Below, piece after piece: positions 22,142 through 63,297 of a DNA stretch of 63,491 nucleotides. The position numbers and the translations under genes are program-made. The stretch lies in NCBI GenBank assembly GCA_018817405.1, contig JAHITZ010000032.1:1-63491 (forward strand), written 5' to 3'. The notes under the pieces are model-generated. The model was given only the letters and a program-made list of their open reading frames with translations. It did not search any database and was not told the origin of the DNA. Source of the stretch: Nanobdellota archaeon (GTDB lineage Archaea; Nanobdellota; Nanobdellia; Pacearchaeales; GW2011-AR1). Every line of letters starts with the position of its first letter. The first letter of the stretch is position 1.

Positions 22142-22239
22142 TGGTCCCGACGGGATTTGAACCCGCGACACCTAGGTTTCTTTTACTTTTAGTTCAATAC
22201 TAAAAGCCTAGTGCTCTAACCAGGCTGAGCTACGGAACC
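22142..22239 (-). tRNA. tRNA-Lys (UUU) with an intron of about 22 nt
   Basis: GGTTCCG/CGGGACC acceptor; GCTC-AGCCTGGTTA-GAGC D arm; anticodon stem CTAGG/CCTAG restored after removing about 22 nt; T loop TTCAAAT. Confidence 0.8.
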
Positions 22240-22691: not shown

Positions 22692-23012
22692 CTACTTAAT
22701 CTCCTTCAACTTCTTCTCCAACTCATCCTTAGAAGTAACACCCATGGTTCTATCAACCTGCTTTCCATCTCTAAAAAAAATCAACGTCGGGATACTCATC
22801 ACCTGAAATCGCTGCGCCAGCTCACTTTGTTTATCAACATCAACCTTACCAAATTTTGTCTTATCTTTCAATTCATTAGCAGTCTCCTCAAAAACAGGAC
22901 CCATCATTTTGCAAGGTCCGCACCATGTAGCCCAAAAATAAACAACAATCTTATCATCTTTAATGAATTTATCAAAATTTTTAGAGTCCAAATCAGTAAT
23001 ATTCTTAGCCAT
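22692..23012 (-). CDS. trxA: Thioredoxin
   Basis: 106 aa; WCGPC active site. Confidence 0.9.
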   Translation of the reverse strand: MAKNITDLDSKNFDKFIKDDKIVVYFWATWCGPCKMMGPVFEETANELKDKTKFGKVDVDKQSELAQRFQVMSIPTLIFFRDGKQVDRTMGVTSKDELEKKLKEIK

Positions 23013-23091
23013 TATAATATCTGAAAAACTTGATTAATAAAGGTTTTGTTAATAGAGTTAATATTAATAACCTCTTGCCCTTTTTAATAAC

Positions 23092-23953: not shown

Positions 23954-24112
23954 TAACGGTATCGGGCTATACGAAGTCGGCGTAAGCCGATTTGGGTGGA
24001 GAAACCTGCAAGGTTTCGGAACCGTTAAATTCCTGTTATGCTCTCCCGACGACTGGAAGGAGGAGAGCGCAGCGGGGCAAAATCCAAAGGATTTTGAGTT
24101 CAGAATTCGGGC
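23954..24112 (+). ncRNA. GC-rich, structured-RNA-like segment (left copy), identity unknown
   Basis: Clearly GC-richer than its surroundings; stems AACGGT/ACCGTT, TCGGC-GTAA-GCCGA (GNRA loop), GAAACC/GGTTTC, CTCTCC/GGAGAG; 43 nt identical to 24513-24555. Confidence 0.35.
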
Positions 24113-24491: not shown

Positions 24492-24645
24492 GCCCGAATT
24501 CTGAATTAGACATAACGGTATCGGGCTATACGAAGTCGGCGTAAGCCGATTTGGGCGAACGGGGTGAGCCGTATAGCCCGTGTTATATGACCGAGCCGAA
24601 GGCGGGGCAAGGAGCGAAGCGACGCAGAGTTCCGAACCCCACCAT
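24492..24645 (+). ncRNA. GC-rich, structured-RNA-like segment (right copy), identity unknown
   Basis: 11-bp stem CGGGCTATACG/CGTATAGCCCG enclosing a TCGGC-GTAA-GCCGA hairpin; shares CGGGGCAA and GAGCG.AGCG strings with the left segment. Confidence 0.35.
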
Positions 24646-30541: not shown

Positions 30542-30722
30542 TTAATACATCAAGATTTGCATTTTACGTAAACTCCCCACTTTAGTTCGTGAGAAAGTAA
30601 ATGCAAATCTTGACTGTGCTCAAGACCCTAAGAATTCCTTACAATAGAATTCTTGGCTGCGCTCAAGAATCTTCGATTCTTGACGACCTGAGGCACGCGA
30701 TTTTAGTCCGCGGGTTCTTGAC
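30542..30722 (+). repeat. Multi-hairpin repeat family A, complete copy 2
   Basis: Five consecutive hairpins: CAAGATTTGCATTT..AAATGCAAATCTTG, CTTGA..TCAAG, AAGAATTC..GAATTCTT, TCAAGAATC-TTC-GATTCTTGA, CGCG..CGCG. Confidence 0.8.
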
Positions 30723-30860: not shown

Positions 30861-33137
30861 ATGAAAAAGAGTGTGTTTATTCTTCTTGGGTTGGTGATTG
30901 TTTTTAGTTTTTTGGGAGTTGTTAGTGCTGAGTGGCAGGAGAATTTGAATGAAGGATTAATTTCTTACTATCCTTTCGATGAAAGTTCTGGAGTAATGGC
31001 AGAAGATGTTATTTCTGGAAATGATTTAACTATATATCGGGGGAATTTTGCAGATGGAGGAATTCTTGGAAATATGTTGAATGCTTCCATTATCGGTGAA
31101 TTAGAAGCAACATCAATTGAAGAAGTGGATGCTTCAATTTTAGGCAATAATCCGAGAACAATAAGTTTCTGGTCATTTACAAATTCTCCAAATAGCATTC
31201 ACACACAATATTTAGTTTCCTATGGCCTATGTAGCAGTAATCAAAAATTCTCAATTGCGAGGTCGGCGAATACTGGGTATTGGTTGGTACAATCTTGCGG
31301 GAGTGATTGGACTTCTGATGTGAGCGCAACTCGTGAAATGAATCATCATGTAATAACTCACAACGGAACCACTATGACTTATTATCTAAATGGGGAAGTG
31401 ATCGGAACCCCTTTTAGAACATATAACACTTTTTCTGCACAATTATACGTTGGAGATTGGTATGGTGGTGCTGGTGAATTATACAACGGCACAATGGACG
31501 AGCTAGGGATATGGAACAGGAGTTTAAGTGAGGAAGAAGCTTTACAACTTTGGAATAATGGGACTGGTTGGGCATATCCTTTTACTTTTAGTGCACCAAC
31601 AATCCAACCTATCGATGACATATTCGCCAATGAAAATGAAACACTTGTCGTTACTATTAATGCGACCCATCCTGAGAACGAAACAATGACTTATTTTATT
31701 CTTCCAGAAGGATACTTTGAGCAGGATGATAATATCTTTACGTGGCAAACAGACTTCGAAGATTGGGGCAATTACACCTTTGAAGCTCAAGTCAGTGATG
31801 GTTATTTTACCAATAGTACTATTTTTAACGTAATTATCTCCAACGTAAACCGCCCACCTTTCTTCTTTCCAATCGGAGACCAAATAGTCAATGAAAATGA
31901 CACACTAACCTTTCCAATATCTTATTCAGACCCTGATAATGAAAACAATGTAACTAACGACGACAATATTCTCACCCTTTCTTCACCCAATCTCCCACCA
32001 GGAGCCCAACTTATCGATGACATATTCACCTGGACACCAAACCACTGGCAATCAGGATTTTACTATCCAACATTTATTGTCTCTGACGGAGAATTTGAAG
32101 TTAATGAAACAATTACCATCGAAGTAATCCAAGTAGATGCAACAGACCTTACCTTAACAAACGATGATATTACCTTCAGCGATGACACACCGATTGAAGA
32201 CCAGACAATTTATATTACAGCGGTTTTCTATAATGTACTGGAGATTAACCCTCCGAGCATTGATGTTGGATTTTATGATGGTAATCCAGAAGATAATGGG
32301 ATACTGATTGACATTGTTACTGTAACTACTCGAGGTGATAGCTATTTTGCTCAGGTAGAATGGGTTGCTGAAATAGCAGGGGAACATGACATTTATTTTT
32401 ATTTAGACCCTGATAATGAAATCTATGAAGGTGATGAAACAAATAATATTGCTTTTAGGTCAATTACAGTAACGCCTGCTCCTGATTTAATGATAAGAGA
32501 ACAGGATATTGGTTTTACTAATCCTTTTCCAGAAGAAGGTGAAGAAATAAACATCCTTGCTATGATTCACAACATCAACTCAGGTGTGGCTGAAGAATTT
32601 AATGTTTTATTTTACTTGGATGATATTTCAAATGTGATTTGGGAGGAGACGTTAAGCATGGGAGGATATAGCACAGAACTTTTAGTAGTTCCCTGGACAG
32701 CTGTACAAGGAGAACATTTGATTCATGTTCTTGTTGATTCAGAACAGGAGATTGAAGAGCCAGATGAATCAAATAACGAAGCATGGAAAACAATTTTTGT
32801 AGAACCCGGGCTGAATAACCCGCCTGTATTAGACCCTGTGGGTGATAAGACAGTTTATGCAATGCATCTTCTGACTATTGACCTTAATGCTTCTGACGCT
32901 GACGACGACGACCTTTTGTATGGTATAACTTCCCATATCTTGCCTTCGAAATTCAATTTTGATCCATTGACAGGAATTTTTGAATGGAAACCTGAAAGAG
33001 AAGACATTGGATTGCATGAAGTTACATTTAATGTTACTGATGGAATTGATTATGATGAAGAAACTATAAACATTAAAGTTCTGCATTCTCCATGGGACTT
33101 CACAGGAGATACACCTGCAAACATACCTTCCCCTTAA
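30861..33137 (+). CDS. Secreted LamG-like / cadherin-like / CARDB-like surface protein
   Basis: Signal peptide; MDELGIWNRSLSEEEA LamG-type motif; repeated PP.F.PIGD..V.E...L modules; APDL..........G....I...I.N.G CARDB-like modules. Confidence 0.75.
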   Translation: MKKSVFILLGLVIVFSFLGVVSAEWQENLNEGLISYYPFDESSGVMAEDVISGNDLTIYRGNFADGGILGNMLNASIIGELEATSIEEVDASILGNNPRTISFWSFTNSPNSIHTQYLVSYGLCSSNQKFSIARSANTGYWLVQSCGSDWTSDVSATREMNHHVITHNGTTMTYYLNGEVIGTPFRTYNTFSAQLYVGDWYGGAGELYNGTMDELGIWNRSLSEEEALQLWNNGTGWAYPFTFSAPTIQPIDDIFANENETLVVTINATHPENETMTYFILPEGYFEQDDNIFTWQTDFEDWGNYTFEAQVSDGYFTNSTIFNVIISNVNRPPFFFPIGDQIVNENDTLTFPISYSDPDNENNVTNDDNILTLSSPNLPPGAQLIDDIFTWTPNHWQSGFYYPTFIVSDGEFEVNETITIEVIQVDATDLTLTNDDITFSDDTPIEDQTIYITAVFYNVLEINPPSIDVGFYDGNPEDNGILIDIVTVTTRGDSYFAQVEWVAEIAGEHDIYFYLDPDNEIYEGDETNNIAFRSITVTPAPDLMIREQDIGFTNPFPEEGEEINILAMIHNINSGVAEEFNVLFYLDDISNVIWEETLSMGGYSTELLVVPWTAVQGEHLIHVLVDSEQEIEEPDESNNEAWKTIFVEPGLNNPPVLDPVGDKTVYAMHLLTIDLNASDADDDDLLYGITSHILPSKFNFDPLTGIFEWKPEREDIGLHEVTFNVTDGIDYDEETINIKVLHSPWDFTGDTPANIPSP

Positions 33138-37010: not shown

Positions 37011-37096
37011 GCGGGGGTGCCAGAGTCCGGTCAAATGGGCTAGCTTGAGGGGCTAGTGGCTTAGTGCCTGCCAGGGTTCGAATCCCTGCTCCCGCA
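37011..37096 (+). tRNA. tRNA-Leu (GAG), no intron
   Basis: Acceptor GCGGGGG/CTCCCGC; anticodon stem CTAGC/GCTAG with loop TTGAGGG; long variable arm; T loop TTCGAAT. Confidence 0.85.
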
Positions 37097-37141
37097 TTAG
37101 GGATTCGAAAGGATTTTAAGTTTGATTTCTCTTAAAAGTAT

Positions 37142-38130: not shown

Positions 38131-38829
38131 TTATACTCTCCTCCCCCTTCTTCCGCCTTTTTTCTTTGGGCCTCCCCGAGGAACTTTTGTTGTGTCTAGT
38201 ATGCTTATGATGTCAAAGCCTGCCTTGCCAAGACTTTTTACTGCAGAATTTGTACCAGGCCCGTGTCCAAATCGTGTTTTTCCTTTCATTCTTACATACA
38301 GTCTTGTAAAACCTAAATCGCGAGCTCGCTCTGCAGCCCTTTTAGCGACGAACATTGCAATTGTTGGATTTGCTTTTAATCTCGAGTGTTTTGTAATCAT
38401 TCCTCCTGAAACTTTTGAGATTGTACTGCCTGAAAGGTCTGTTATGTGGACTCTTGTGTTGTTTGAGGAGCTTGAGATGTAAGCGATTCCTGTTTTGTCT
38501 TCTTTCCTTTTTGTTTTGGATTCTGTTTTTTGTGGTGTAACTTTTTCTTCTTTAGGTTCTTTTTTCTTCTTATCAACTATTTCTGCAGCAACTTCCTCGG
38601 CAACTTCTTCAGCTACTTTCTCCGCAGCTTCTTCTTTTTTCTTCTTATCAACTATTTCTGCAGCAACTTCCTCGGCAACTTCTTCAGCTACTTTCTCCGC
38701 AGCTTCTTCTTTTTTCTTCTTAGTTTTGGTCTCAAGAGAGGTTGGAATCTTTTTTTCTATTTCTTCTTCTACAATTTCCTTGATTTCTTCCTTTACTTTC
38801 TTCTCAACTTTTTTCTTTTCTTCTGGCAT
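38131..38829 (-). CDS. rps11: 30S ribosomal protein S11 with an N-terminal K/E/A-rich extension of about 100 aa
   Basis: C-terminal 130 aa are a canonical S11 (GIAYISSSSNNTRVHITD...GRRGRRV). Confidence 0.9.
   Translation of the reverse strand: MPEEKKKVEKKVKEEIKEIVEEEIEKKIPTSLETKTKKKKEEAAEKVAEEVAEEVAAEIVDKKKKEEAAEKVAEEVAEEVAAEIVDKKKKEPKEEKVTPQKTESKTKRKEDKTGIAYISSSSNNTRVHITDLSGSTISKVSGGMITKHSRLKANPTIAMFVAKRAAERARDLGFTRLYVRMKGKTRFGHGPGTNSAVKSLGKAGFDIISILDTTKVPRGGPKKKGGRRGRRV
38566..38715. repeat. Perfect 2 x 75-nt tandem duplication inside the rps11 5' extension
   Basis: 38566-38640 and 38641-38715 read identical; encodes KKKKEEAAEKVAEEVAEEVAAEIVD twice. Confidence 0.85.
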
Positions 38830-43582: not shown

Positions 43583-43728
43583 TAAATAAATCGCTAAATT
43601 CGCTATCCTCCTGGCAAGACCATTGGGTATTTGCCGCGAATTTCCAAGACGCGATTTCTAATTTTCTTTTTGAAAAAACGCGGCAAGACTGCGGGGTATC
43701 AAACCCCAAAAAGAAAATGAATTAATAA
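43583..43728 (+). repeat. Hairpin-rich repeat family B, copy 1 (long form)
   Basis: Near-identical to 48929-49074; nested stems AAATCGC/GCGATTT, AATTCGC/GCGAATT, ATTTTCTTTTTG/CAAAAAGAAAAT, GGGG/CCCC; GGCAAGAC occurs twice. Confidence 0.8.
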
Positions 43729-43899
43729 TTGTATATGTCGCTTGTTTGGACGTTTGGATGTGCAAAGTTGCATTCGTCCGCGCACTCGAGTGCGCGGTTT
43801 TCTGCAAAGCAAGTTTGGTATAATAGTATGGAAAGATTTAACAATATAAAATGCAATTGTATAACTGACGTATAACTGACAGATTTGAAAGGAGGTAAA

Positions 43900-44676
43900 A
43901 TGAGTGACGAAACAATTACAATAAAGAAAGAAAATCTTTGGAAATATTCTACTTTTGTTTTGGGAGCATTGGTCATAGTGATGGCGCTTGTGATATTTAC
44001 GGGCGACAATAGTTCAGTGACTGGGAATGTTGTTGCAAATCCTCAGCCAAGCCCAAGTCCTAATCAGCAAGCTCCAAGTCCTTCTGCAGAGCAGCAGAGG
44101 TCTCCACAAGTAGATGTTGGTGTTGATGACGACGCTGTTTTAGGAGATGAAAATGCTCCGGTTACAATAATAGAATTTTCTGATTACCAGTGTTCATTTT
44201 GCATGAGATTCTGGAGTCAGACATTGCCACAGATAAAATCTCAGTATATTGAATCTGGAAAAGTAAAATTTTCTTATAGGGATTTGCCATTGACAAGCAT
44301 ACATCCTTTTGCACAGAAAGCTGCAGAATCAACAGAATGTGTGCGCGAGCAAGGAGGAGATGAGGCATTTTGGATGATGCATGACAAGATATTTGAAAAC
44401 CAGGCGGGTTTGAATGATGAAAACTTAAGGATCTGGGCACAAGAAAGAGGATATAATATTGACACCTGTTTGAAGTCTGGCAAGTTTAGAGGAGAAATCC
44501 AGAAAGACATGCAGGATGCGCAAAGAGCTGGCGGAAGAGGAACACCTTACTTTATTATCAACGGAAAAACACTTAGTGGTGCATGTCCGTTCAACGCATT
44601 CCAACAAGCAATTGATGCAGAGCTTGCCGGAAAAGAGTGGTACAGTCCTGGAAGTTGTCAAATAACAGTGATTTAA
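43900..44676 (+). CDS. Membrane-anchored DsbA-family thiol:disulfide oxidoreductase
   Basis: GGAGG 5 nt upstream of the ATG at 43900; TM anchor; thioredoxin-fold CSFC active site. Confidence 0.8.
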   Translation: MSDETITIKKENLWKYSTFVLGALVIVMALVIFTGDNSSVTGNVVANPQPSPSPNQQAPSPSAEQQRSPQVDVGVDDDAVLGDENAPVTIIEFSDYQCSFCMRFWSQTLPQIKSQYIESGKVKFSYRDLPLTSIHPFAQKAAESTECVREQGGDEAFWMMHDKIFENQAGLNDENLRIWAQERGYNIDTCLKSGKFRGEIQKDMQDAQRAGGRGTPYFIINGKTLSGACPFNAFQQAIDAELAGKEWYSPGSCQITVI

Positions 44677-45700: not shown

Positions 45701-47650
<1,950 letters not shown>

Positions 47651-48928: not shown

Positions 48929-49074
48929 AATAAAGAAATCGTTAAAATTAACTATCCCCATGGCAAGACACTTGGGTATTTGCCGCGAATTTCCAAGACG
49001 CGATTTCTAATTTTCTTTTTGGAAAAATTCGGCAAGACCGCGGTGTATCAAACCCCAAAAAGAAAATTATAATT
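48929..49074 (+). repeat. Hairpin-rich repeat family B, copy 2 (long form)
   Basis: Aligns with 43583-43728 by eye. Confidence 0.8.
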
Positions 49075-50575: not shown

Positions 50576-53500
50576 TTAATACCCCTTCCTCTTCCTAATC
50601 CCAAAGTAAATCCCTACAACAATCGCAGCTATTACCACAACACCAAGAACCACAAACAAAATCGTTCCTCCAGTCTTGCCAAGACCAAGAAGACCTTCAC
50701 CTTCTCCAGCAGCTTCTCCCTCATCAGCAGCTCTTCCAGTTACAGGACCTGTTCCTTCTTCTTCACCCTCTTCTTCTTCATCTTCACATATGCTTGAACA
50801 TCCATCTCCATCTTCAGTATTTCCATCATCACACTCTTCTCCAGTATTAATAATCCCATTACCACAAAGTTCTACTAAACCCCCTCCGCCGCTAGAACCC
50901 CCACCAATAACGCCACCATCAGCACCTGCAGTGAACTCATAATATGTGGAAAACTCACAGAATGGAACTTCCCAAACACAATTAGTTGCATCTTTTAATG
51001 TAGCTGATGAAGTCCTATCAGTACAGCTAGTTCCAGCGTCATTACAATGATACAATGTATCGCATGTTCCTGTAAATGGTACCTTAATCCTGCAAACCTC
51101 TGGATGCAAGTTGTTTATTATTTTGTCTCTTGATTCTGAATTCAATCCGACAAGTGTGCTAGTGCCAATAATATTATCATCGGCAGTGGTCAGGGTTCTA
51201 ACCTTGTCATTCAAGCCTGTTTTACTTACGCTTACATTCAAAAATTCAAAGTAAATAGTTCCATCATTTCTAGAAAGTTTTATGTTCATTGCTCTTGCAT
51301 CAGTATAATTTATCTTCATTCCTGCATTTACTCCACATACTTGTCCTTGAGAATGCTCGTAAGTCCCATCGCTATCAGCGTCATATGAAACATTCCATGC
51401 AGACGGTTCTTTCAATCTCAGGACAAAATTGCAATAACCGCAAGTGCTAGTGGTTGTTGTCCTAAACTTGCTGCACTTGCTTAAAGAACATTTGTTATTA
51501 GAATCACAAATTCTCAGTTTGTAGTAATAATCTGTACTAGCATCCAAGGCAGTAACTAATGAAGTTGCGCCATCATCATACAATGCAATTTGCTGCCATA
51601 ACTTGAACTCCCTAACAGTATTATTCTTCCTAATTCCAACGTCATAAACACTCTTGTTCAAAGTTTTACATGTTGAGTCATTCCCATAGAACTTAAGAGT
51701 TCCATTAACTGGTTTGCTTGACTCAAACATTAGCAAGGCAGCATCAGGATATTCCTCTACTCTAACACCTTTTATAACAGGCATAGTTGTATCTCCAAAG
51801 CTGCCATTATTTGTTCCCAAACTATTTGCAACACAATAAGTATTAAACTCACATGCCCAATCAGCGCAATCAACAGCACCATTTTCATCATCATCTACAC
51901 CATTATAACAATCTTCATATCCAACAAATCCTTTTTGTAAAATTTTCTCAAATTTTGCTGTATTTGCACCAAATTCCAATGCTCCTGTAAGCTCAAAATC
52001 AACAGCTCCAGGAGTTGCCCATGCAGGGCCTGCACTATCTGTTGGTGTAGTTATATCTCCAGTATCACCGATAGTTACAACATAAACCCTCATATCTCCT
52101 GTTGAGCTATAAAGTGTTGGGAACCTTGATAATTCACCTTTCTCAATCGCTATCATAGGACCTCCAATCTCATTGCACATCTTCTGTTTCCACGAGTTTG
52201 TTTTAATATCAGCAACTTTCCATTTGCTGTTATCGCACTTGTATGAAGTAAAAGTCTCTGTTGCTTTGCTATTGTTGTTATCCCATACTGAGGAATATCT
52301 TAGCTTAAATTCATATCCTTCTGAACCTGACAAGGATTCTATTGCACAACCATCTACAATACTGCCATCTGTATCAAGATAAACAATATATTTGACAGTT
52401 TCATTTCCATCTCCTGTTTTCTCTAAAGCTGTAGGTCCTCCTTCTTCTCCTCCTCCGCCTCCTTCCATATCCATAACAAACGAACTTATTTTTATCCTAT
52501 TACAAACAGATGAATTTTCAAAATTATAAACACGAGTCCCAAAGCCATAAGTGTCACCCATATCTTTCATGCCAAATCCGCAGATATCAACACTTGCTTG
52601 ACTAATACTCTCTGTTCCACAACCATCTATTCCAATAGGAGTAGGAGCTCCTGTTTCCATTTCGTCAAACATACCCATCATTCCAGTAGGATTGCACCAT
52701 CCAGTAAGCCATCTGCATCCGCTTCCACATGTTGCCTGAGTTGTAGCTGAGAAGCACGTTGGCTCACAACTACCCCAGGTAGTAGAATTACAGTAACTAT
52801 TATTATTACAAGCACTTGCATCAGTTTGCAATGTCGTATTACTCCAGCACTGGTCCATTATATTCGTGCAATAGCTTCCCCAGTCATCACTCTTAAACCA
52901 GCACCCATTTGTAACATTACATCCATCGGCATCACTTGCATATTGCCAACAATCTCCTCCTGCATTCCAATCTACTTCACACCACGGACTTGACTCTGAA
53001 AACCAACTGCAACTTATGTTTATGATTGTGCTATTTGTACAATAAGATTGATTGCCATCATATCTCCAACACTCTCCACCAATTCCTCCGCCACCAGCCA
53101 TTGCTCCAGTGTTAAAACCATCTTTTGGATTGCACCATCCATCATTTCTCCACCTGCATACACTATCTGCATCACAATTGGTCTGGTTATTAGAATTAGT
53201 TGAATTCCAGCAAGTTGCAGATTGTTGCTCTTCACACCACCCAGGATCTGCCATCCAAACACAGCCAGAAACAGCCTCGCATGCAGTACCAGAATTAGAC
53301 ATTGTTTCATTAAAGCAGGCTGGCTGACAATTTCCATCCCCTCCCCCGTATGTTTGCCATGTGCACTCAACAGAAGCACTATCACATTCACTTTCAGTCC
53401 ACACATTCCAACATTCATCATACAAACTACCACACCAGTTATTATTAGAATTCCACCAACAGCCATTAGCTGCTGTGCAATTACTAGAACCATATCCCCA

Positions 53501-56500
53501 GCAATCCATGCTATCTGTCCAGTTCACTTCACAATGTGGCTGAGACCACTCATCAGTGCGCCATGAGCAACCAGTTACATTACAACTAGAATTGCTGCTA
53601 TACTGCCAACAATCCTGCATTACAAAAGAAGAATGGTCACACCAACCCCCATAATTGTCACACCAATCCGTGCCATTTCCTCCTGTACTGCACCATGTAT
53701 CATTTGACCATGCACAGCCAGAACCACTTTGGTTGTTGCATCCACTTTCGCTACTATATCCAAAACAAACTTCTGCTATGCTCCAGTCCTGCTCACACCA
53801 TCCACTCCCACTACCTGCCTGCCATTCGCAAAACTGGGATTCATTCTTGTAATATTGATAAGAAACATTAGTATAGTTCCAAATCATATCCACCATAACA
53901 CTACTGTTAGTAAAATTAATAGTCTGCCTTGTGTAATCAACAGTATAATTCCCTATCAACAGCCCTCCAGTAACATTTGTTATATTTACAGAACCATTAA
54001 CCCAACCAGCACCCGGATAAGCCAGAGTGAGTGTATAAACTTCATTAATTTGATTTCCAATTAGCGACCGCGCCAATGTGATATTTAGTGATTCGTTAAC
54101 TTGAGTAATACTCCTGCATGTAGTCTCGCTACCATCATATCTCCAACATTGACTCCCTCTAAAGTCACACCAGCTTCCCCATCCATCACTAACCCATTCA
54201 CAATTACTATCTACATTACATGTATCTTCAGTATTCCAAACAAAACAATCTCCTGAAACCATTCCACAGAACGAATCTGCATAACATCCAGGGTCAGCAC
54301 AGTCTATCAAAGAATCAGAATCATCGTCTTCTCCATTCCAGCAGATTTCAACATCTCCTGCAATGTTAGCAACACAGCTTCCATCACTATCACCTCCCTG
54401 CCACTTGCAGCTTCCACTCTGGTTTGCAACATTTGTTCTCCCGTCATTAGTGCATGTGCTCTGTGTCTCACATCTGTCACAAGCATCTTTGCATGTTTCT
54501 GCATCTTTACCCAAACAATACCCTCCTGTTGTTGTGCTGTTATCATCCTCCCACTTACATGCAGTTGGATAGTCTTTACACCAACTTTCAGGTGTCTTTG
54601 TTCCATTTGCTCCAGAAGGATCCCCCATAAATGTGCATGCACCACAATTTGCAGTCCCGCACGTTTCAGCTACTCCTGTTGTAAATTCTGTCTTTGCTCT
54701 GCATTTTCCATATCCATTAGTTGCATTGCTATCTTCTGTAAACTCACAGAAACCTAAAAGAGAGGCATAACAAGCTTCTCTTGCAGCATCAGTTGAATTA
54801 TGTGCTGACCCATCTGATTTAGATTCACATGCAAAACACGCCTTATTGCAATTTGTTTCATCATCAAACTTGTGTTCACATCTTCCTGTCGGAACAGAAA
54901 TATTTCCAGCACAATAGTTTTCAGTTATCCATTTACCACCAATAGCCTCACAAGTCTTCTTATTTTCTATTGTAACTAAGCTTTGTGTGTTATTACCCCA
55001 AATATCAGATGTTTTTATTGTACATTTCGTAGGTGAGGTTGAATTGTCCCATTTACAAGGCCAATACCACGGAGTTCCTGCAAGAAGATCGCAATTAGAT
55101 TTAGTTGTGGCATCATCACACGAATCTTCTCCACTTGGCGTTCCATCAACATTGCTCCAACAAGATGCATCAAACTCACTTACCGTACATGTCCCGCTTT
55201 GCCAAGCACAACAAGAGGACAGTGCAGGAATGCTGTTGCACAAACTAGAACTGTTTATTATAGTGCAATTTATGCCATTAGCATTTATTGACAAATTATA
55301 TGCATGAGTTGAGTTAGTATCACACACACCAGTAGAATTATCGCACCCTATAACATAACCACATTCAGTCATATTATTATCAAAGATATAACATCCCGGG
55401 TTCCATTGATTTAATATACTTCCAGAGTCATCCACTGTGCTCCAATCAGGGTCTGTGCAATTCCCCCCCACACTTGGATCACTCCAGTCATTTGCCTGCC
55501 ACCAGCAATACCAACTATCATAGCATTGCATTTCATTTGTATAACTGCTGCAGTTTGTATTAGAAAAATCTGTTTCACACCATCCTATCCCTCCCGACAT
55601 ATTTACCCAGTTGCAGCTTAGCCCATATAAGCTCGCATTACCATTACAAGCTTCTTCACTTCCTCCGCTCCAAGAATCCCATGTCCAACAATTAACTTCA
55701 TCACACCAACCAGAAGTTTCCCAACTATCCCAAATACACTGGGTTCTATTCCCACATGTTGCAGAATCTGTAGCTGTCCAGCAATTATCTTCAATGCAAT
55801 AACCACTGTTCCATGTGCAATCTAGATTGTCAGTTGTATTAGAATTTATACATCCTGTTTGGTTTCCGTCAAAACTCCAACATCCAATTTCCTCACACCA
55901 TCCAGTGCTGGAAGAACCTATCCAATTGCAGTGACTTGCAGCATTGCATGTAGTAATATTATTATATAACTCATAACTCCAGCAGCTATCTTCAATACAA
56001 CTGCTTGAAGTATTTGACCAAACGCAATTCCTTCCATTCCAGGGATCTTTTTTAGCATTGCAAATATCTTCTCCCTCGCTGGTGTAATCCCAACAGCTTT
56101 TTGTCATACAACCTCCCCAAGCACACCCAGTTGTATTTTGACAAAGTGATTGATTATTTCCAATCCCCCAGCAGTCTGCATTTCCTCCTCCAGAACTAAA
56201 ACATTCATCTCTCCATTCACAAGACCTATCATCTGTGTTATTAACACATATAGCTTCGCTAGTTCCATCCCAAGTCCAACAACTTATCTCTTCACAATAA
56301 TACTGCGTCCCCCCGCCTCGCCAAGTACAATTCTTATTGGCAATGCTTGTAGTAGTACAATCATCTTGCGTCCACAAACTCCAACAGTTTAGTTCTTCAC
56401 ACCAACTTCCCCAAGGGTCACTTCTCCAGATGCATCCATTGGGGGAATCACACTGGCCTGTTGCATTGCTTGTGTACAAATAACAATTAGTTGCAGAAAC

Positions 56501-56596
56501 AAAACTCAATGAGAGAAAGAAAACCAATGCTAGTGCGAGAGATAATAGCATCACCCCATTGTTAAGTTTATATTTTTTCACCACTTTTATAAACAT
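50576..56596 (-). CDS. Giant (2006 aa) Cys/Trp/Asn-rich, C-terminally membrane-anchored surface protein
   Basis: N-terminal signal/TM; many copies of a C.W...WC[ED]E..CW module; CGNGIINTGEECDDGNTEDGDGCSSIC repeat; acidic linker, TM helix, RKRKGY tail. Confidence 0.85.
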   Translation of the reverse strand: MFIKVVKKYKLNNGVMLLSLALALVFFLSLSFVSATNCYLYTSNATGQCDSPNGCIWRSDPWGSWCEELNCWSLWTQDDCTTTSIANKNCTWRGGGTQYYCEEISCWTWDGTSEAICVNNTDDRSCEWRDECFSSGGGNADCWGIGNNQSLCQNTTGCAWGGCMTKSCWDYTSEGEDICNAKKDPWNGRNCVWSNTSSSCIEDSCWSYELYNNITTCNAASHCNWIGSSSTGWCEEIGCWSFDGNQTGCINSNTTDNLDCTWNSGYCIEDNCWTATDSATCGNRTQCIWDSWETSGWCDEVNCWTWDSWSGGSEEACNGNASLYGLSCNWVNMSGGIGWCETDFSNTNCSSYTNEMQCYDSWYCWWQANDWSDPSVGGNCTDPDWSTVDDSGSILNQWNPGCYIFDNNMTECGYVIGCDNSTGVCDTNSTHAYNLSINANGINCTIINSSSLCNSIPALSSCCAWQSGTCTVSEFDASCWSNVDGTPSGEDSCDDATTKSNCDLLAGTPWYWPCKWDNSTSPTKCTIKTSDIWGNNTQSLVTIENKKTCEAIGGKWITENYCAGNISVPTGRCEHKFDDETNCNKACFACESKSDGSAHNSTDAAREACYASLLGFCEFTEDSNATNGYGKCRAKTEFTTGVAETCGTANCGACTFMGDPSGANGTKTPESWCKDYPTACKWEDDNSTTTGGYCLGKDAETCKDACDRCETQSTCTNDGRTNVANQSGSCKWQGGDSDGSCVANIAGDVEICWNGEDDDSDSLIDCADPGCYADSFCGMVSGDCFVWNTEDTCNVDSNCEWVSDGWGSWCDFRGSQCWRYDGSETTCRSITQVNESLNITLARSLIGNQINEVYTLTLAYPGAGWVNGSVNITNVTGGLLIGNYTVDYTRQTINFTNSSVMVDMIWNYTNVSYQYYKNESQFCEWQAGSGSGWCEQDWSIAEVCFGYSSESGCNNQSGSGCAWSNDTWCSTGGNGTDWCDNYGGWCDHSSFVMQDCWQYSSNSSCNVTGCSWRTDEWSQPHCEVNWTDSMDCWGYGSSNCTAANGCWWNSNNNWCGSLYDECWNVWTESECDSASVECTWQTYGGGDGNCQPACFNETMSNSGTACEAVSGCVWMADPGWCEEQQSATCWNSTNSNNQTNCDADSVCRWRNDGWCNPKDGFNTGAMAGGGGIGGECWRYDGNQSYCTNSTIINISCSWFSESSPWCEVDWNAGGDCWQYASDADGCNVTNGCWFKSDDWGSYCTNIMDQCWSNTTLQTDASACNNNSYCNSTTWGSCEPTCFSATTQATCGSGCRWLTGWCNPTGMMGMFDEMETGAPTPIGIDGCGTESISQASVDICGFGMKDMGDTYGFGTRVYNFENSSVCNRIKISSFVMDMEGGGGGEEGGPTALEKTGDGNETVKYIVYLDTDGSIVDGCAIESLSGSEGYEFKLRYSSVWDNNNSKATETFTSYKCDNSKWKVADIKTNSWKQKMCNEIGGPMIAIEKGELSRFPTLYSSTGDMRVYVVTIGDTGDITTPTDSAGPAWATPGAVDFELTGALEFGANTAKFEKILQKGFVGYEDCYNGVDDDENGAVDCADWACEFNTYCVANSLGTNNGSFGDTTMPVIKGVRVEEYPDAALLMFESSKPVNGTLKFYGNDSTCKTLNKSVYDVGIRKNNTVREFKLWQQIALYDDGATSLVTALDASTDYYYKLRICDSNNKCSLSKCSKFRTTTTSTCGYCNFVLRLKEPSAWNVSYDADSDGTYEHSQGQVCGVNAGMKINYTDARAMNIKLSRNDGTIYFEFLNVSVSKTGLNDKVRTLTTADDNIIGTSTLVGLNSESRDKIINNLHPEVCRIKVPFTGTCDTLYHCNDAGTSCTDRTSSATLKDATNCVWEVPFCEFSTYYEFTAGADGGVIGGGSSGGGGLVELCGNGIINTGEECDDGNTEDGDGCSSICEDEEEEGEEEGTGPVTGRAADEGEAAGEGEGLLGLGKTGGTILFVVLGVVVIAAIVVGIYFGIRKRKGY

Positions 56597-56654
56597 CTAT
56601 TACAATTTATATACTAATAACTTCCTTATAAACTTTTCGCATGACTCGACGGGT

Positions 56655-59117
56655 TTATTCAACAAAAATCCCAGGCCGACCAGGCTTCACTTTCTTAGAT
56701 TTATTTTCAGGATCATATTTCTTTTTATCATTCACTGCAAAAACATTCACATCTTTCCCAACTCTTTTCGCAATTTCCTCTGCCGAGTAGTTCTCTAATT
56801 CATTAGGCAAAACATAAACATACACCAGCTCACCTTTAGAAACAATCTTCAAAATATTTAAAATATCAGCAACTGTTCTCTCAACAGCTTTTTCAGCCTT
56901 ATCAAATTTTTCATTTATCTTCTTCTCATTACACTTGGGCCAATCTGATAAAGAAACAAATCCTTTTCCTCCAATCCTTGACCAAAGTTCCTCTCCGACG
57001 TGAGGACAAAACACAGAAAATAACTTAACAAAACTCTCCAAGTCTTTCTTCGCCATCTCGCCCTCCAAACTTCCAAACAACCCTCTCAACTTAATTACAG
57101 CCAGATTATACTTAAGATTTTCAATGTCTTCGGTTATTTCCTTCACCCCCTTATTAACTTTATGCTCCACTTTTGCCGAAGATTTCCCTGCATTCCATTT
57201 AGAAGCATAATCAATCACTTTCTCAATAAGCTTTAGAATTCCTTCTGCTCCTTTGTCGCTCCAGTCCCGGTTTTTATCAGGGCCCCCTGTTGAGACCAAG
57301 AATAATCGCACACTATCAACGCCAAATTTTTCACTAACAACCTCTGGCATAACAACATTACCTCTTGACTTTGACATTTTCTCCCCACCTGGGCCGTGGA
57401 CCATGCCCTGATTAAACAACTTCACAGCAGGCTCGTCAAAATCCAACAAACCAATATCTCTCAAAAATTTAGTGTAAAACCTGCAATAAATAAGATGTCC
57501 TGTTGCATGTTCTCTTCCTCCGATGTATATATCAATGGGCATCAAGTGTTTTATTTTCTTCTTGTCAAAAATCGCCTTCTCATTCTTGGCATCACAATAT
57601 CTCAAAAAATACCACGACGAATTTACAAAAGTGTCCATTGTGTCTGTTTCTCTTCTTGCTTTGCCCTTGCATTTTGGGCATTTCACATCCATAAATTTAC
57701 TACAACCAATTAAGGGATTTTTCTTGCTTGTGAATTTAATATTATCTGGGAGTTTGACAGGTAAATCCTTCTCAGGCACACCTTGAATTCCACACCCATC
57801 ACAGTATATAATAGGAATCGGAGTTCCCCAGAATCTTTGACGGGAAATTAGCCAGTCTCTGAGTTTGTAATTGATGGTTTTCTTACCCCACTTATTTTTC
57901 TCAATCCAATTAGCCATTTTAGGCAAGGCTTCACGATTATTCATTCCGCTAAATTCTCCCGAGTTGAACAAGATTCCGTCATTTACAAATGCGTAATCCT
58001 CTCTCATTGCGTCCAACTCTTCCCCATCTTCACTTATAACAAACTTCAATGGAATATCATATTTTCTAGCAAATCTAAAATCTCTTTTGTCGTGAGCATC
58101 ACACATAACAACACCAGAGCCATACATTAAAGCAAAATTAGCAACATAAATCGGGACCTTTTCATTATTAACAGGATTGATTGCATATCTCCCAGTAAAT
58201 ATTCCTTCTTTTTCCTTTTCCTCGTTAATTCGGTCAGCAAACGACTCCTTCGCAAGTCTTTGAGAAAATTCCTTAACTTCTTTTTCCCTATCACTCCCTT
58301 CAACTAACTCGTTAACAAGCGGGCTTTCTGGAGCAACTGCTAAAAAGGTAACACTAAAGATTGTGTCGCATCTTGTTGTGTAGGTAGAAAGGATTTTTTC
58401 TGAGTCTTCCAACTTAAAATAAATATCAGTTCCCTGGCTCTTCCCAATCCAATTCTTCTGCATCGCCTTAATATCCTCTGGCCAGTCTTTCAGTTTTTCA
58501 ATATCTTCATACAGCTCATCAGCATACTTAGTTATTTTTAAAAACCATTGGTCAAGGTGCTTTATCTCGACTTCTGTGTCCTCGTGCAGATAACACCTGC
58601 CATCTTTAACCTGCTCATTCGCAAGAACTGTATTGCATTGGGAACACCAATTTACAGGAGCTTCTTTCTTGTACGCAAGGCCTTTCTCAAACATCTTCAA
58701 AAAAATCCACTGGTCCCATTTGTAAAAATCTGGTTTATGGCATTCCACCATCCTGCTCCAGTCATAGCTCAAGCCAAGGTTTTTCTGTTGCTTGATGTAA
58801 TTCTTTATTGCATCTTCAGTAAATTTCTTTGGATGTGATTTACCTCTGATCGCAGCATTTTCCGCAGGCAAACCAAAAGAGTCATAACCCATTGGGTAGA
58901 GAACATTGAATCCTTGCATTCGTTTAAAACGGGCGTAAATGTCTCCTATCGTATAATTGAAGGCATGGCCAATATGCAAACCAGACGCCGAAGGATAAGG
59001 GTACATTTCAAGAACATAATACTTCTCCTTCTTCCCACCTTCCTTAACCTCAAAAGCTTTAGACTTTTCCCACTTTGACTGCCATTTCTTTTCTATCTTT
59101 GCAAAGTTTATTTTCAT
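56655..59117 (-). CDS. leuS: Leucyl-tRNA synthetase, bacterial-type architecture
   Basis: 820 aa; YPYPSASGLHIGH, FGLPAENAA, KMSKS; collinear by eye with the bacterial LeuS N-terminus. Confidence 0.95.
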   Translation of the reverse strand: MKINFAKIEKKWQSKWEKSKAFEVKEGGKKEKYYVLEMYPYPSASGLHIGHAFNYTIGDIYARFKRMQGFNVLYPMGYDSFGLPAENAAIRGKSHPKKFTEDAIKNYIKQQKNLGLSYDWSRMVECHKPDFYKWDQWIFLKMFEKGLAYKKEAPVNWCSQCNTVLANEQVKDGRCYLHEDTEVEIKHLDQWFLKITKYADELYEDIEKLKDWPEDIKAMQKNWIGKSQGTDIYFKLEDSEKILSTYTTRCDTIFSVTFLAVAPESPLVNELVEGSDREKEVKEFSQRLAKESFADRINEEKEKEGIFTGRYAINPVNNEKVPIYVANFALMYGSGVVMCDAHDKRDFRFARKYDIPLKFVISEDGEELDAMREDYAFVNDGILFNSGEFSGMNNREALPKMANWIEKNKWGKKTINYKLRDWLISRQRFWGTPIPIIYCDGCGIQGVPEKDLPVKLPDNIKFTSKKNPLIGCSKFMDVKCPKCKGKARRETDTMDTFVNSSWYFLRYCDAKNEKAIFDKKKIKHLMPIDIYIGGREHATGHLIYCRFYTKFLRDIGLLDFDEPAVKLFNQGMVHGPGGEKMSKSRGNVVMPEVVSEKFGVDSVRLFLVSTGGPDKNRDWSDKGAEGILKLIEKVIDYASKWNAGKSSAKVEHKVNKGVKEITEDIENLKYNLAVIKLRGLFGSLEGEMAKKDLESFVKLFSVFCPHVGEELWSRIGGKGFVSLSDWPKCNEKKINEKFDKAEKAVERTVADILNILKIVSKGELVYVYVLPNELENYSAEEIAKRVGKDVNVFAVNDKKKYDPENKSKKVKPGRPGIFVE

Positions 59118-61762: not shown

Positions 61763-62605
61763 CTATTCACTTTTCCCACTATCTTCCTTAAACAAACCAT
61801 CAAATGGATTCGCAACTTTCTTCAACTGTTCAGAAGAGATATGAGTATAAACTTGAGTTGTGTTTAATGATGCGTGGCCCAACATCACCTGAATAAGACG
61901 AATGTCAACACCCTGCTCAAGCAAATGCGTGGCAAAACTATGCCTTAATGTGTGGGGCGTTGTTTTCTTCGTAATGCCTGCGCGCTCTTTAGTTCCTTTA
62001 ATAATTTTTTGTATATTCCTCGTCGTCAGAGGCTTTGTCTTGGAAAAAACATACTCATTTTCCTTTCCTCTTGTATCAAAGTAATCTTTCAGCTCTTCAG
62101 AAAGATTTTCAGACATAACAAATAATCTGTCTTTGTTTCCTTTTCCCCTTCTCACCCATCCTGTTTTTTCGTCTAAATTCAAATCAGAAACCTTCAGATT
62201 AACAAGCTCAGAAACCCTCAAACCAGTAGAATACAATAACGAAACAATCAACCGCGACTTTATGGTGTCAGTAGACTCAATCAAGTTCCTGACTTCGCTC
62301 TTCGTTAAAACTTCTGGAAGTTTTTTTTCTTTCTTCGGCAGTGGAATGCCCTCAAAATCTTTTTTCAAAACTTCTTTAAAGAAAAACTTCAACGAAGCAC
62401 CGGCAAGCATGATTGTGTTCTTGGATTTTGTGTCAAACATCTCAGAAAGATAAGCCTTAACATCTTCCTTGTCTAATTCTTTTTCTTTTTTGTTTGTTTT
62501 TTTTAAAAATTTATTGACGAAAAAAGTATAGTTACGAACGGTCAACGGAGAAAACCCCCGAATTTTCAACTCTGCTTTTAATTTTTCTAATAACTCCATT
62601 AGCAC
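61763..62605 (-). CDS. xerA: Tyrosine recombinase, XerA/XerC/XerD-like
   Basis: 280 aa; GLRVSE, HTLRHSFATHLL, LGHASLNTTQVYTH. Confidence 0.85.
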   Translation of the reverse strand: MLMELLEKLKAELKIRGFSPLTVRNYTFFVNKFLKKTNKKEKELDKEDVKAYLSEMFDTKSKNTIMLAGASLKFFFKEVLKKDFEGIPLPKKEKKLPEVLTKSEVRNLIESTDTIKSRLIVSLLYSTGLRVSELVNLKVSDLNLDEKTGWVRRGKGNKDRLFVMSENLSEELKDYFDTRGKENEYVFSKTKPLTTRNIQKIIKGTKERAGITKKTTPHTLRHSFATHLLEQGVDIRLIQVMLGHASLNTTQVYTHISSEQLKKVANPFDGLFKEDSGKSE

Positions 62606-63015: not shown

Positions 63016-63146
63016 GCGGGAGTTCCAGAGTGGTCAAATGGGCAGGACTTAAGACGTCTGTCGTTCATCAGAGCGATATAAGATAGGATTTCGTAAGAGA
63101 TCCTGTGTGCTTAGTGCCTTCGGAGGTTCGAATCCTCCCTCCCGCA
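63016..63146 (+). tRNA. tRNA-Leu (UAA) with a 46-nt intron (about 63054-63099)
   Basis: Acceptor GCGGGAG/CTCCCGC; anticodon stem CAGGA/TCCTG restored after intron removal; loop CTTAAGA; long variable arm; T loop TTCGAAT. Confidence 0.8.
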
Positions 63147-63297
63147 TTTATGTCTTCTCCGAAGACATATCAATTCGCGGTAGCGAATTGTGCCTACGGC
63201 AAACAAGACGAGCAAAGCGAGTTCTATTGTAGTCTTTTGATGCGTACAACTTTTCTTCTAGAAAAGTCGTACTTCGTGATCCTCCCTCCCGCATTTA
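63147..63297 (+). mobile_element. Hairpin-rich mini-insert of about 130 nt, bounded by a 19-nt duplication of the tRNA-Leu 3' end
   Basis: ATCCTCCCTCCCGCATTTA at 63132-63150 and 63279-63297; interior hairpins ATGTCTTC/GAAGACAT, CAATTCGC/GCGAATTG, ACTTTTC/GAAAAGT. Confidence 0.6.

What the first reader, a model, noticed from the sequence alone, without database searches (positions are those of the whole stretch)
50576..56596. 2006-aa Cys/Trp-rich repeat protein: candidate host-attachment surface giant
The architecture is a signal/TM at the N-terminus, then more than 20 copies (by eye) of a module of about 35 aa centred on C-x-W ... W-C-[ED]-E-x2-C-W, with many N-x-S/T sequons. It also has segments like DSLIDCADPGCYADSFC and VDCADWACEFNTYC and a CGNG..GEECDDGN..DGDGC..IC repeat. 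It ends with an acidic linker, one TM helix and a short basic tail. The window also encodes a membrane-anchored DsbA-like oxidoreductase (43900-44676) and a thioredoxin, consistent with extracytoplasmic disulfide formation. I do not recognise the CxW/WCEExxCW module as a named domain.
Basis: partly seen in the sequence, partly recalled or inferred. Interest (0 to 1): 0.7.

Follow-up and report, generated by a model that had tools for sequence, protein, structure and literature searches.

The report
Conserved disulfide-stapled archaeal surface glycoprotein
A 2006-residue membrane-anchored surface protein of a tiny DPANN archaeon is built mostly from an unnamed 33-residue cysteine/tryptophan mini-domain; it is a single-copy, end-to-end conserved family in Woese-/Pacearchaeota, so it is more likely their main envelope glycoprotein than a specialised host-attachment adhesin.

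Summary
ORF 50576-56596(-) encodes a 2006-aa type-I surface protein with a signal peptide, a C-terminal TM helix and a basic tail. It has 156 Cys, 94 Trp and 67 N-glycosylation sequons, twice the number expected. About 21 "CW" modules lie in two arrays.

The CW module has no match in Pfam, NCBIfam, PDB or BFVD. Only 56 of 1.84 billion representative proteins match its profile.

The protein is not an orphan or a free-running repeat. More than 130 colinear orthologs of about 2000 aa exist, one per genome, in Woese-/Pace-/Nanoarchaeota MAGs. 140 of 156 Cys are at least 90% conserved. The residues between them diverge much faster than in housekeeping neighbours (41% against 65-92% identity). Distant orthologs carry a PGF-pre-PGF stalk. 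A DsbA-like gene sits immediately downstream in 4 of 73 genomes.

Best reading (about 0.5): the lineage's principal, DsbA-folded, Ca-stabilised, heavily glycosylated envelope (S-layer-like) protein. A dedicated host adhesin is the main rival (about 0.3). No publication describing the family was found.

The parts
50576..56596 (-). Whole ORF, 2006 aa, type-I membrane-anchored surface glycoprotein
   Evidence: exact protein also found on two public contigs
56625..56640 (-). BRE/TATA-like element gcgAAAAGTTTATAAg, about 33 nt upstream of the ATG; suggests an own promoter and a near-leaderless mRNA (inferred from sequence only)
56492..56596 (-). Signal peptide, aa 1-35 (Lys-rich n-region, hydrophobic core 16-33, ...FVSA|T); family consensus is VSAxxCW
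55565..56485 (-). CW array 1, aa 38-344: 9 contiguous 4-Cys/3-Trp modules (C-W-x-Y-x5-8-C-x4-10-C-x-W-x6-9-[GS]-W-C-[ED]-E). This is the most distal part, and the one expanded in the 2.5-3.0 kaa variants
   Evidence: AF2 pLDDT 75-93, beta-hairpin plus short helix per module
54353..55564 (-). Central Cys-rich region B, aa 345-748, with three ~60-aa 6-Cys repeats each starting C-x3/4-C-x2-C (aa 583-590, 646-654, 702-709). aa 551-600 is the most conserved 50-aa window of the alignment
   Evidence: no Pfam hit
54266..54352 (-). Acidic double-disulfide repeat 1, aa 749-777; related to the teneurin C-rich Ca-binding domain
   Evidence: NF033662 33.9 bits; 7plp E = 0.31 single sequence, 0.0094 family profile; PMC9058538
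52682..54247 (-). CW array 2, aa 784-1305, about 12 modules
   Evidence: AF2
53831..54115 (-). Variable 95-aa insert, aa 828-922, with 11 sequons (12 per 100 aa), lying inside one CW module between its 2nd Cys (827) and 3rd Cys (923); gapped in about 70% of homologs
51917..52681 (-). Beta-rich domain F, aa 1306-1560, with the conserved YLDTDG...GYEF motif
51833..51916 (-). Acidic double-disulfide repeat 2, aa 1561-1588
   Evidence: NF033662 32.1 bits
50927..51811 (-). Membrane-proximal beta-sandwich domains H and I, aa 1596-1890 (FN3/Ig-like); apart from the short acidic repeat 1, the best-conserved non-Cys/Trp residues of the protein
50666..50926 (-). Variable stalk, aa 1891-1977: Gly-rich linker, one DUF4215 copy, acidic linker. 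Replaced by a PGF-pre-PGF domain in distant orthologs
50774..50872 (-). DUF4215 / TIGR02232 myxo_disulf_rpt, aa 1909-1941; present in only 3 of 103 homolog stalks
50579..50665 (-). TM helix (aa 1978-2000) plus basic cytoplasmic tail RKRKGY; 101 of 103 homologs have a C-terminal TM helix
43885..44676 (+). Membrane-anchored DsbA-like oxidoreductase (TM anchor, Pro/Ser/Gln linker, CSFC); the likely folding catalyst
   Evidence: a DsbA-like gene is immediately downstream of the ortholog in L025, L028, L043 and L055

Best explanation
This is the lineage-specific principal cell-envelope (S-layer-like) glycoprotein of a Pace-/Woesearchaeal (DPANN) archaeon.

Shown by sequence:
- A Sec-type signal peptide and a C-terminal TM helix with a basic tail give a type-I topology, with about 1940 residues outside the cell.
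- All 156 Cys lie in the ectodomain, and 140 of them are near-invariant in the family.
- Sequons are twofold enriched and positionally conserved.

Inferred:
- A membrane-anchored DsbA-like oxidoreductase forms up to 78 disulfides, two per CW module.
- The oligosaccharyltransferase AglB decorates the protein with N-glycans.
- Two teneurin-like acidic double-disulfide modules bind Ca2+ and stiffen the junctions between segments.
- The two arrays of CW mini-domains (beta-hairpin plus short helix) act as rigid, chemically robust scaffolds. Their inter-cysteine loops are free to vary.
- The better-conserved membrane-proximal beta-sandwich domains and the central region B carry the conserved contacts, such as self-association or lattice formation. 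A variable stalk sets the distance from the membrane.

The protein would therefore form the glycan-covered outer coat of the cell. By default it would also be the surface that meets hosts and viruses.
For: Family and orthology:
- More than 130 homologs, nearly all 1850-2150 aa.
- They are colinear over aa ~20-1890.
- 140/156 Cys are >=90% conserved.
- There is one copy per genome in 73 GTDB species genomes. These include the closed chromosome CP010425.1 and a 1.3-Mb contig.
- Synteny with LeuRS and ribosomal genes is kept at 41% identity.
- An own BRE/TATA-like element lies upstream.

Surface-glycoprotein hallmarks:
- 101/103 homologs have a C-terminal TM helix.
- A PGF-pre-PGF domain at 64-77 bits (cutoff 28) sits in the stalk of distant orthologs.
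- Sequon enrichment is z = 7.3 in the query and 6.0 on average in the family. 37 alignment positions carry a sequon in >=50% of members.

Scaffold frozen, surface variable:
- The giant is 41% identical, against 65-92% for 15 neighbouring proteins (mostly housekeeping) in the same genome pair.
- Non-Cys/Trp identity is 31-35% in the CW arrays and 46-54% in the proximal sandwiches.

Disulfide machinery:
- DsbA-like protein in the window.
- DsbA-like gene directly downstream of the ortholog in 4 of 73 genomes.

Other:
- The Ca-module homology places the conserved Asp residues at 6 of 9 teneurin side-chain ligand positions and retains 2 of its 3 disulfides.
- No cultivated Woese-/Pacearchaeote or identified envelope protein was found in the literature.
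Against: - No abundance, localisation or lattice data exist for any member.
- S-layer proteins are usually Cys-poor and smaller.
- A second plausible envelope protein (CARDB/He_PIG/LamG/Big_9, 30861-33137) is encoded in the same window.
- Universality within the clade was not established: the GTDB scan is pattern-based, and only 97 stretches were confirmed.
- Foldseek gave only generic FN3/Ig matches for the C-terminal half and nothing for the N-terminal part. No structural link to any known S-layer protein exists.
- The model coordinates could not be inspected, so rod shape, disulfide pairing and Trp exposure are all inferred.
Confidence: 0.5

Rival explanations
1. Dedicated host-attachment adhesin. 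The distal CW arrays and the glycan-rich insert bind a host surface ligand and tether the episymbiont.
For: - Cultivated DPANN are episymbionts that need cell contact, and large extracellular proteins are proposed as attachment factors in Woese-/Pacearchaeota (PMC8204110).
- The distal arrays are the most variable part.
- The arrays are expanded to 24-38 modules in some lineages.
- The only solved relative of any part is a domain of the cell-adhesion protein teneurin.
Against: - No adhesin, lectin or CBM domain was found.
- The family is single-copy and colinear across a very wide clade that presumably has different hosts.
- There is no paralog family or domain shuffling apart from stalk swaps.
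- The gene lies in a housekeeping neighbourhood.
- The attachment candidates named in the literature are a different class, the lytic transglycosylase giants.
Confidence: 0.3
2. Lectin-like glycan-binding array. The conserved Trp residues form sugar-stacking platforms, as in hevein or CBM1-type mini-domains, and bind polysaccharide (host wall, EPS or mineral-associated organics).
For: - Three conserved aromatic positions per 33-aa module; 69/94 Trp are >=70% conserved.
- The mini-domains are small and disulfide-rich, like some carbohydrate-binding modules (from general knowledge, not tested).
- The module also occurs next to a NosD/beta-helix domain, a fold common in polysaccharide-active proteins, in P0168.
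Against: - No CBM or lectin family hit, and no structural match.
- In a 33-aa module with two disulfides the Trp residues may simply form the core. Exposure could not be measured.
Confidence: 0.12
3. The Cys residues are metal ligands (Zn or Fe-S) rather than disulfides. The organisms are often anaerobes, and region B has three C-x3/4-C-x2-C motifs.
For: - Homologs come largely from anoxic groundwater and sediment MAGs (record titles).
- C-x3-C-x2-C motifs at aa 583-590 and 702-709, and a C-x4-C-x2-C motif at aa 646-654.
Against: - The Cys in CW modules are evenly spaced 5-12 residues apart, with no CxxC knuckles.
- The location is extracellular.
- A DsbA-like oxidase is in the window and adjacent to the ortholog in 4 genomes.
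- The Cys count is even at 156.
- The acidic repeats retain 4 of the 6 Cys positions that form disulfides in teneurin (C838-C857 and C852-C863).
Confidence: 0.05

Closest known systems
Archaeal S-layer / cell-surface glycoproteins with a C-terminal anchor (e.g. haloarchaeal CSG; PGF-pre-PGF / PGF-CTERM proteins)
   Same: Sec signal peptide, large N-glycosylated ectodomain, flexible stalk, and a C-terminal TM helix with a basic tail. Orthologs carry a true PGF-pre-PGF domain in the stalk. Lineage-specific and fast-evolving but with a conserved architecture.
   Different: The ectodomain has no sequence or fold similarity to these proteins. It has 7.8% Cys (up to 78 disulfides) and 4.7% Trp and is about twice the usual size. 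The query itself lacks PGF-pre-PGF. Lattice formation is untested.
Teneurin C-rich Ca2+-binding domain (PDB 7PLP; PMC9058538) and NCBIfam NF033662 acidic double-disulfide repeat
   Same: aa 749-777 and aa 1561-1588 share the CxxGxDDDxDGxxDCxDxxC pattern. Acidic residues sit at 6 of 9 teneurin side-chain ligand positions. The first two disulfides (C838-C857 and C852-C863 equivalents) are kept. In teneurin the domain is followed by a beta-sandwich (TTR) domain; here repeat 2 (aa 1561-1588) is likewise followed by beta-sandwich domain H, whereas repeat 1 is followed by CW array 2.
   Different: Four Cys rather than six, so the third disulfide is absent. The E835 and D856 ligand equivalents are missing. 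Scores are below the NF033662 cutoff. Ca binding is untested.
DUF4215 (PF13948) / TIGR02232 myxococcal cysteine-rich acidic repeat
   Same: aa 1909-1941 scores above both curated cutoffs (34.2 against 27; 47.1 against 20.8).
   Different: There is a single copy, in the variable stalk, present in only 3 of 103 family members. It is a lineage-specific add-on, not a defining feature.
Eukaryotic rod-like tandem Cys-rich ectodomain modules (laminin-type EGF, integrin I-EGF, TNFR CRD, furin-like repeats, TSR)
   Same: Works alike: tandem 30-40-aa disulfide-stapled mini-domains without linkers build a rigid extracellular scaffold tolerant of loop variation. As in TSRs, Trp is prominent.
   Different: No Pfam hit and no Foldseek hit. 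The Cys/Trp pattern is distinct, and the predicted unit is a beta-hairpin plus a short helix. It is not a member of any of these families.
Other giant DPANN surface proteins (nanohaloarchaeal SPEARE; Woese-/Pacearchaeal lytic-transglycosylase giants, PMC8204110)
   Same: Very large secreted or anchored proteins in reduced-genome archaea, discussed as mediators of cell-cell interaction.
   Different: No shared domains were detected. This family is single-copy, colinear and broadly conserved rather than patchy, and it has no enzymatic domain.

Membership tests
DUF4215 / TIGR02232 myxo_disulf_rpt | HMM score above the curated cutoff | tested here: met
   aa 1909-1941: Pfam 34.2 bits (cutoff 27), NCBIfam 47.1 bits (cutoff 20.8), when the segment is scanned alone. 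It is missed in the whole-protein scans.
NF033662 acidic double-disulfide repeat protein | Whole-protein HMM score >= 41 bits | tested here: not met
   36.9 bits for the whole protein and 33.9 and 32.1 bits for the two segments. The E-values of 2e-8 to 7e-8 still indicate homology of the repeat itself. Orthologs score 18-40 bits.
Teneurin C-rich domain | Six Cys in 1-3, 2-5, 4-6 pairing and eight acidic Ca ligands plus one Asn | tested here: inconclusive
   Alignment, mapped onto PMC9058538. Four of six Cys are retained. The D843, N844, D845, D847, D851 and D854 equivalents are acidic, D840 becomes N, and E835 and D856 are lost. Profile E = 0.0094.
PGF-pre-PGF (TIGR04213) surface proteins | TIGR04213 domain N-terminal to the C-terminal anchor | tested here: not met
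   No hit in the query. Met in orthologs P0052, P0072, P0096 and P0104 at 64-77 bits against a cutoff of 28.
Archaeal S-layer protein (functional class) | Secreted, anchored to the membrane and N-glycosylated | tested here: met
   Signal peptide, TM helix plus basic tail, twofold sequon enrichment. Glycosylation itself is inferred.
Archaeal S-layer protein (functional class) | Most abundant envelope protein, forming a 2-D lattice over the whole cell | not testable with these tools
   No expression, proteomic or imaging data could be linked to the family. S-layer genes are among the top-10 expressed Woesearchaeotal genes in PMC11606122, but their identity is unknown.
Known Cys-rich repeat domains (EGF, laminin EGF, TNFR, furin-like, TSR, hevein/CBM, VSG C-terminal domain) | Pfam/NCBIfam HMM match, or a fold match to a solved structure | tested here: not met
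   No family at E <= 5 for aa 37-370 or aa 371-748. Foldseek-PDB best E = 1.7 and BFVD best E = 9e-3 with TM 0.05. PDB profile search: nothing for the CW arrays or region B; its only hits were the teneurin C-rich domain on acidic repeat 1 and low-complexity matches to the stalk.
Adhesin / lectin families | A recognisable adhesive or carbohydrate-binding domain | tested here: not met
   None in Pfam or NCBIfam. The C-terminal half shows only generic FN3/Ig-like sandwiches.
DGR-diversified surface protein | TR/VR repeat pair and a nearby reverse transcriptase | tested here: not met
   No repeat pair involves the gene. No RT was seen, but only 10 of the other ORFs >=150 aa were domain-scanned.

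The most novel reading that the evidence does not exclude
The family is the long-missing envelope (S-layer) protein of the uncultivated Woese-/Pacearchaeota, and it represents a new construction principle for a prokaryotic cell coat. The coat would be a covalently stapled (about 78 disulfides), Ca-stabilised glycoprotein built from a previously undescribed 4-Cys/3-Trp fold. The same mini-domain is shared, by descent or transfer, with surface mucins of choanoflagellates (Savillea parva P0147).
Probability: 0.25. Interest if true: 0.75.

Novelty: new variant of a known kind. Interest (0 to 1): 0.55.

Why it matters
Woesearchaeota and Pacearchaeota are among the most widespread uncultivated archaea, and nothing is known experimentally about their cell envelope or how they contact partners. 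A single-copy, clade-wide, 2000-aa surface protein is the obvious first target for several lines of work:
- antibodies and cryo-ET identification;
- metaproteomic quantification;
- studies of host or virus receptors.

Its building block is an unnamed, confidently predicted disulfide-rich mini-domain that could be added to the domain databases. A protein that needs about 78 disulfides, in organisms often found in anoxic habitats and reported to lack Cys and Trp biosynthesis (PMC11606122), is also a physiological puzzle.

Tried and rejected
- **Whole-protein domain scans.** Pfam and NCBIfam scans of the whole protein miss DUF4215. Only the segment scans recovered it.
- **PDB sequence searches.** The single-sequence and family-profile searches gave only the teneurin C-rich domain, plus low-complexity hits to the stalk.
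- **Foldseek.** The C-terminal half against PDB gave only generic FN3/Ig arrays at TM <= 0.13 on the query. The N-terminal part against PDB and BFVD gave nothing.
- **Viral contigs.** The IMG/VR scan found no relative.
- **Conserved operon partner.** Rejected: the neighbourhoods of P0104, P0011 and P0097 differ. The attempt to score LeuRS synteny across the 73 GTDB loci was uninformative, because the flanks end inside the gene.
- **Recent repeat expansion or DGR targeting.** Rejected: there are no DNA repeats in the gene and no TR/VR pair.
- **Metal-binding Cys.** Judged unlikely (see rivals).
- **Literature.** Eight searches found no description of the family. Castelle 2015 is not held. The Pacearchaeota metaproteome lists only unnamed hypothetical proteins.
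Full report
**1. Observation**

The ORF at 50576-56596(-) is real and encodes 2006 aa.
- Composition is extreme: 156 Cys (7.8%), 94 Trp (4.7%), and Gly, Ser, Thr and Asn each at 8-11%.
- A Lys-rich n-region followed by a hydrophobic stretch (aa 16-36, ending FVSA|T) looks like a Sec signal peptide.
- The only other hydrophobic segment is aa 1978-2000. It is followed by RKRKGY, giving a type-I topology.
- All 156 Cys lie between aa 38 and aa 1937, so all are extracytoplasmic and their number is even.
- There are 67 NxS/T sequons, against 31.7 +/- 4.9 in shuffles (z = 7.3).

**2. The module**

A strict pattern finds 15 modules, against 0.03 in shuffles. Their alignment gives the consensus C-W-x-[YW]-x5-8-C-x4-10-C-x-W-x6-9-[GS]-W-C-[ED]-E-x2, about 33 aa with 4 Cys. 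An HMM from these finds 19 modules at >=3 bits and 22 at >=0 bits in the protein (shuffles: 0.16 and 0.7). They form two arrays: aa 38-344 with 9 modules and aa 784-1305 with about 12.

The variable 95-aa segment at aa 828-922 carries 11 sequons and is gapped in about 70% of homologs. It is a loop insertion inside one module, between Cys827 and Cys923. No DNA-level repeats exist in the gene, so the duplications are ancient.

**3. The rest of the architecture**

- aa 1909-1941 is a single DUF4215 / TIGR02232 copy above cutoff.
- aa 749-777 and aa 1561-1588 are NF033662 acidic double-disulfide repeats (E about 1e-8, but below the whole-protein cutoff).

The family profile's only solved relative is the teneurin-4 C-rich domain, 7PLP (E = 0.0094). 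That domain binds three Ca2+ ions (PMC9058538). Mapping the alignment onto it, six of the nine side-chain ligand positions are acidic here and the first two of its three disulfides are kept.

Region B (aa 345-748) contains three ~60-aa 6-Cys repeats and includes the most conserved stretch of the family. aa 1306-1890 is beta-rich.

**4. Predicted structure**

AlphaFold2 with a 38-sequence MSA gave pLDDT 74 and pTM 0.64 for aa 920-1900. For aa 30-830 it gave pLDDT 70.8, with the CW array at 75-93. Each module is a beta-hairpin (the CxW strand and the WCEE strand) plus one or two short helices.

Foldseek gave only generic FN3/Ig-like sandwich arrays for the C-terminal half. For the N-terminal 800 aa it found nothing in PDB (best E = 1.7) or BFVD.

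**5. It is a conserved ortholog family, not an orphan repeat protein**

The window is core chromosome of an archaeon, carrying RNAP A and B, EF-2, RNR, L21e, Rpb4, S13 and LeuRS.

The protein has more than 130 homologs, almost all 1850-2150 aa. They come from MAGs labelled Pacearchaeota, Woesearchaeota, Nanoarchaeota or Aenigmarchaeota.
- They align colinearly over aa ~20-1890. Only the insert and the stalk/anchor vary.
- 140 of 156 Cys are >=90% conserved, and 69 of 94 Trp are >=70% conserved.
- A GTDB species-representative scan confirmed 97 stretches, of which the best 80 were kept (73 distinct loci). Each lies on a different contig and at most one per genome was seen. These include the closed chromosome of archaeon GW2011_AR15 and a 1.3-Mb contig.
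- The slot downstream of LeuRS, flanked by L13/S9 and by L21e/DUF655/S13/Cpn60, is retained in a genome whose ortholog is only 41% identical. More distant members sit elsewhere and share no operon partner.
- In that same genome pair, 15 neighbouring proteins (mostly housekeeping) are 49-92% identical, most of them 65-92%.

The scaffold is therefore frozen while the surface evolves fast. Non-Cys/Trp identity is lowest in the CW arrays (31-35%) and highest in the membrane-proximal sandwiches (46-54%).

**6. Surface-glycoprotein hallmarks across the family**

101 of 103 homologs end in a TM helix. Stalk length is bimodal. The long form is a genuine PGF-pre-PGF domain (TIGR04213, 64-77 bits). The DUF4215 stalk of the query occurs in only 3 of 103.

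Sequon enrichment is family-wide (mean z = 6.0), and 37 alignment positions carry a sequon in at least half of members. A BRE/TATA-like element lies about 33 nt upstream of the ATG.

**7. Disulfide machinery**

The DsbA-like ORF at 43885-44676 has a TM anchor, a Pro/Ser/Gln linker and a CSFC site. The thioredoxin at 22692-23033 is an ordinary cytoplasmic one.

In four of the 73 GTDB loci (L025, L028, L043, L055) a DsbA-like gene starts a few hundred nucleotides after the conserved ectodomain ends, on the same strand. This recurs far more often than random placement would give, although three of the four may be related lineages.

**8. Distribution of the module**

An exhaustive HMM search of 1.84 billion representative proteins found only 56 hits at E <= 1e-3. 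Most are orthologs or N-terminal fragments of them.

Some lineages expand the N-terminal array, reaching 24-38 modules in proteins of 2460-2967 aa. Canonical members have 16.8 +/- 2.3 modules.

Two hits have a different architecture.
- P0168 has a NosD/beta-helix domain, 3-4 CW modules, an acidic repeat and a TM helix.
- P0147, from the choanoflagellate Savillea parva, has seven isolated modules separated by mucin-like linkers.

The isolated copies argue that each 4-Cys module folds on its own, with two internal disulfides. Whether the eukaryotic copies are homologous or convergent is open.

**9. Interpretation**

The secure part (about 0.9) is this: a Sec-exported, C-terminally anchored, heavily N-glycosylated ectodomain, very probably disulfide-stapled, conserved as a single-copy ortholog across a broad DPANN clade.

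The functional commitment is less secure. Several features fit a core envelope (S-layer-like) protein better than a host-specific adhesin:
- clade-wide colinearity;
- single copy;
- a housekeeping neighbourhood;
- its own promoter-like element;
- the PGF-pre-PGF stalk in orthologs;
- a frozen scaffold with a variable surface.

I put this reading at about 0.5.

A dedicated adhesin (about 0.3) remains viable. The distal arrays are the variable and expandable part, and cultivated DPANN depend on contact. The two roles are not exclusive. A lectin-like role for the Trp-rich modules (about 0.1) and metal-binding Cys (about 0.05) are minor alternatives.

**10. Novelty**

Database names for the family are only "hypothetical protein" or "PGF-pre-PGF domain-containing protein". 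Eight literature searches found no description. PMC8204110 notes only that many lineage-specific DPANN families are unannotated and membrane-bound or extracellular, and it highlights a different class of giants.

The kind of protein, an anchored archaeal surface glycoprotein, is known. The building block and the scale of disulfide stapling are new. I therefore rate it a new variant of a known kind.

Noticed in passing
L025:6796-7305, L028:6308-6967, L043:6291-6998, L055:1828-2508: A DsbA-like gene lies immediately downstream of, and co-directional with, the giant's ortholog in 4 of 73 species genomes. In the window it is 6 kb away on the other strand.
   Followed up: partly
P0147 (EukProt EP00038 Savillea parva), aa 81-447: A choanoflagellate mucin-like TM protein carries seven isolated CW-like 4-Cys modules (CF..C..CxW..FGFCE), at 6-15 bits each and whole-protein E = 7e-7. 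It is unclear whether this is homology or convergence.
   Followed up: partly
window 43596-43718 and 48945-49067: A 123-nt direct repeat (91% identical) brackets the 5.3-kb block holding the DsbA-like, M50 peptidase, Cpn60 and Cpn10 genes.
   Followed up: no
window 1-112 and 30587-30698: A 112-nt direct repeat, 96% identical, with copies 30.6 kb apart. One copy lies just upstream of the CARDB/He_PIG surface-protein ORF.
   Followed up: no
window 38557-38706: A perfect 75-nt tandem duplication (25 aa, in frame) inside ORF 38131-38829(-), which points to a very recent event.
   Followed up: no
window 63109-63148 and 61763-62605: An 83% copy of the 3' half of tRNA-Leu (37059-37098) lies about 500 nt from a tyrosine-recombinase (Phage_integrase/XerA-like) ORF. 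It could be an att site or an undetected split or intron-containing tRNA.
   Followed up: no
window 22142-22239 (-): Rfam calls a 98-nt tRNA here that ARAGORN misses. It probably contains an intron.
   Followed up: no
window 30861-33137 (+): A 758-aa protein with Laminin_G_3, He_PIG, CARDB and Big_9 domains. It is a second predicted surface protein and an alternative envelope candidate.
   Followed up: partly
window 45701-47311 (-) and the adjacent Cpn10 gene (L001:15563-15841): A Cpn10 (GroES) gene lies about 340 nt upstream of, and co-directional with, the Cpn60 gene (one small ORF between them) in an otherwise archaeal context, which suggests a bacterial-type GroEL/ES in this archaeon.
   Followed up: no
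window 56655-59117 (-): LeuRS is 820 aa here but 939 aa in the syntenic L003 genome, and only about 470 aa align in one tblastn segment. The enzyme may be shortened or rearranged.
   Followed up: no
window 23954-23996 and 24513-24555: A perfect 43-nt direct repeat with copies 559 nt apart.
   Followed up: no
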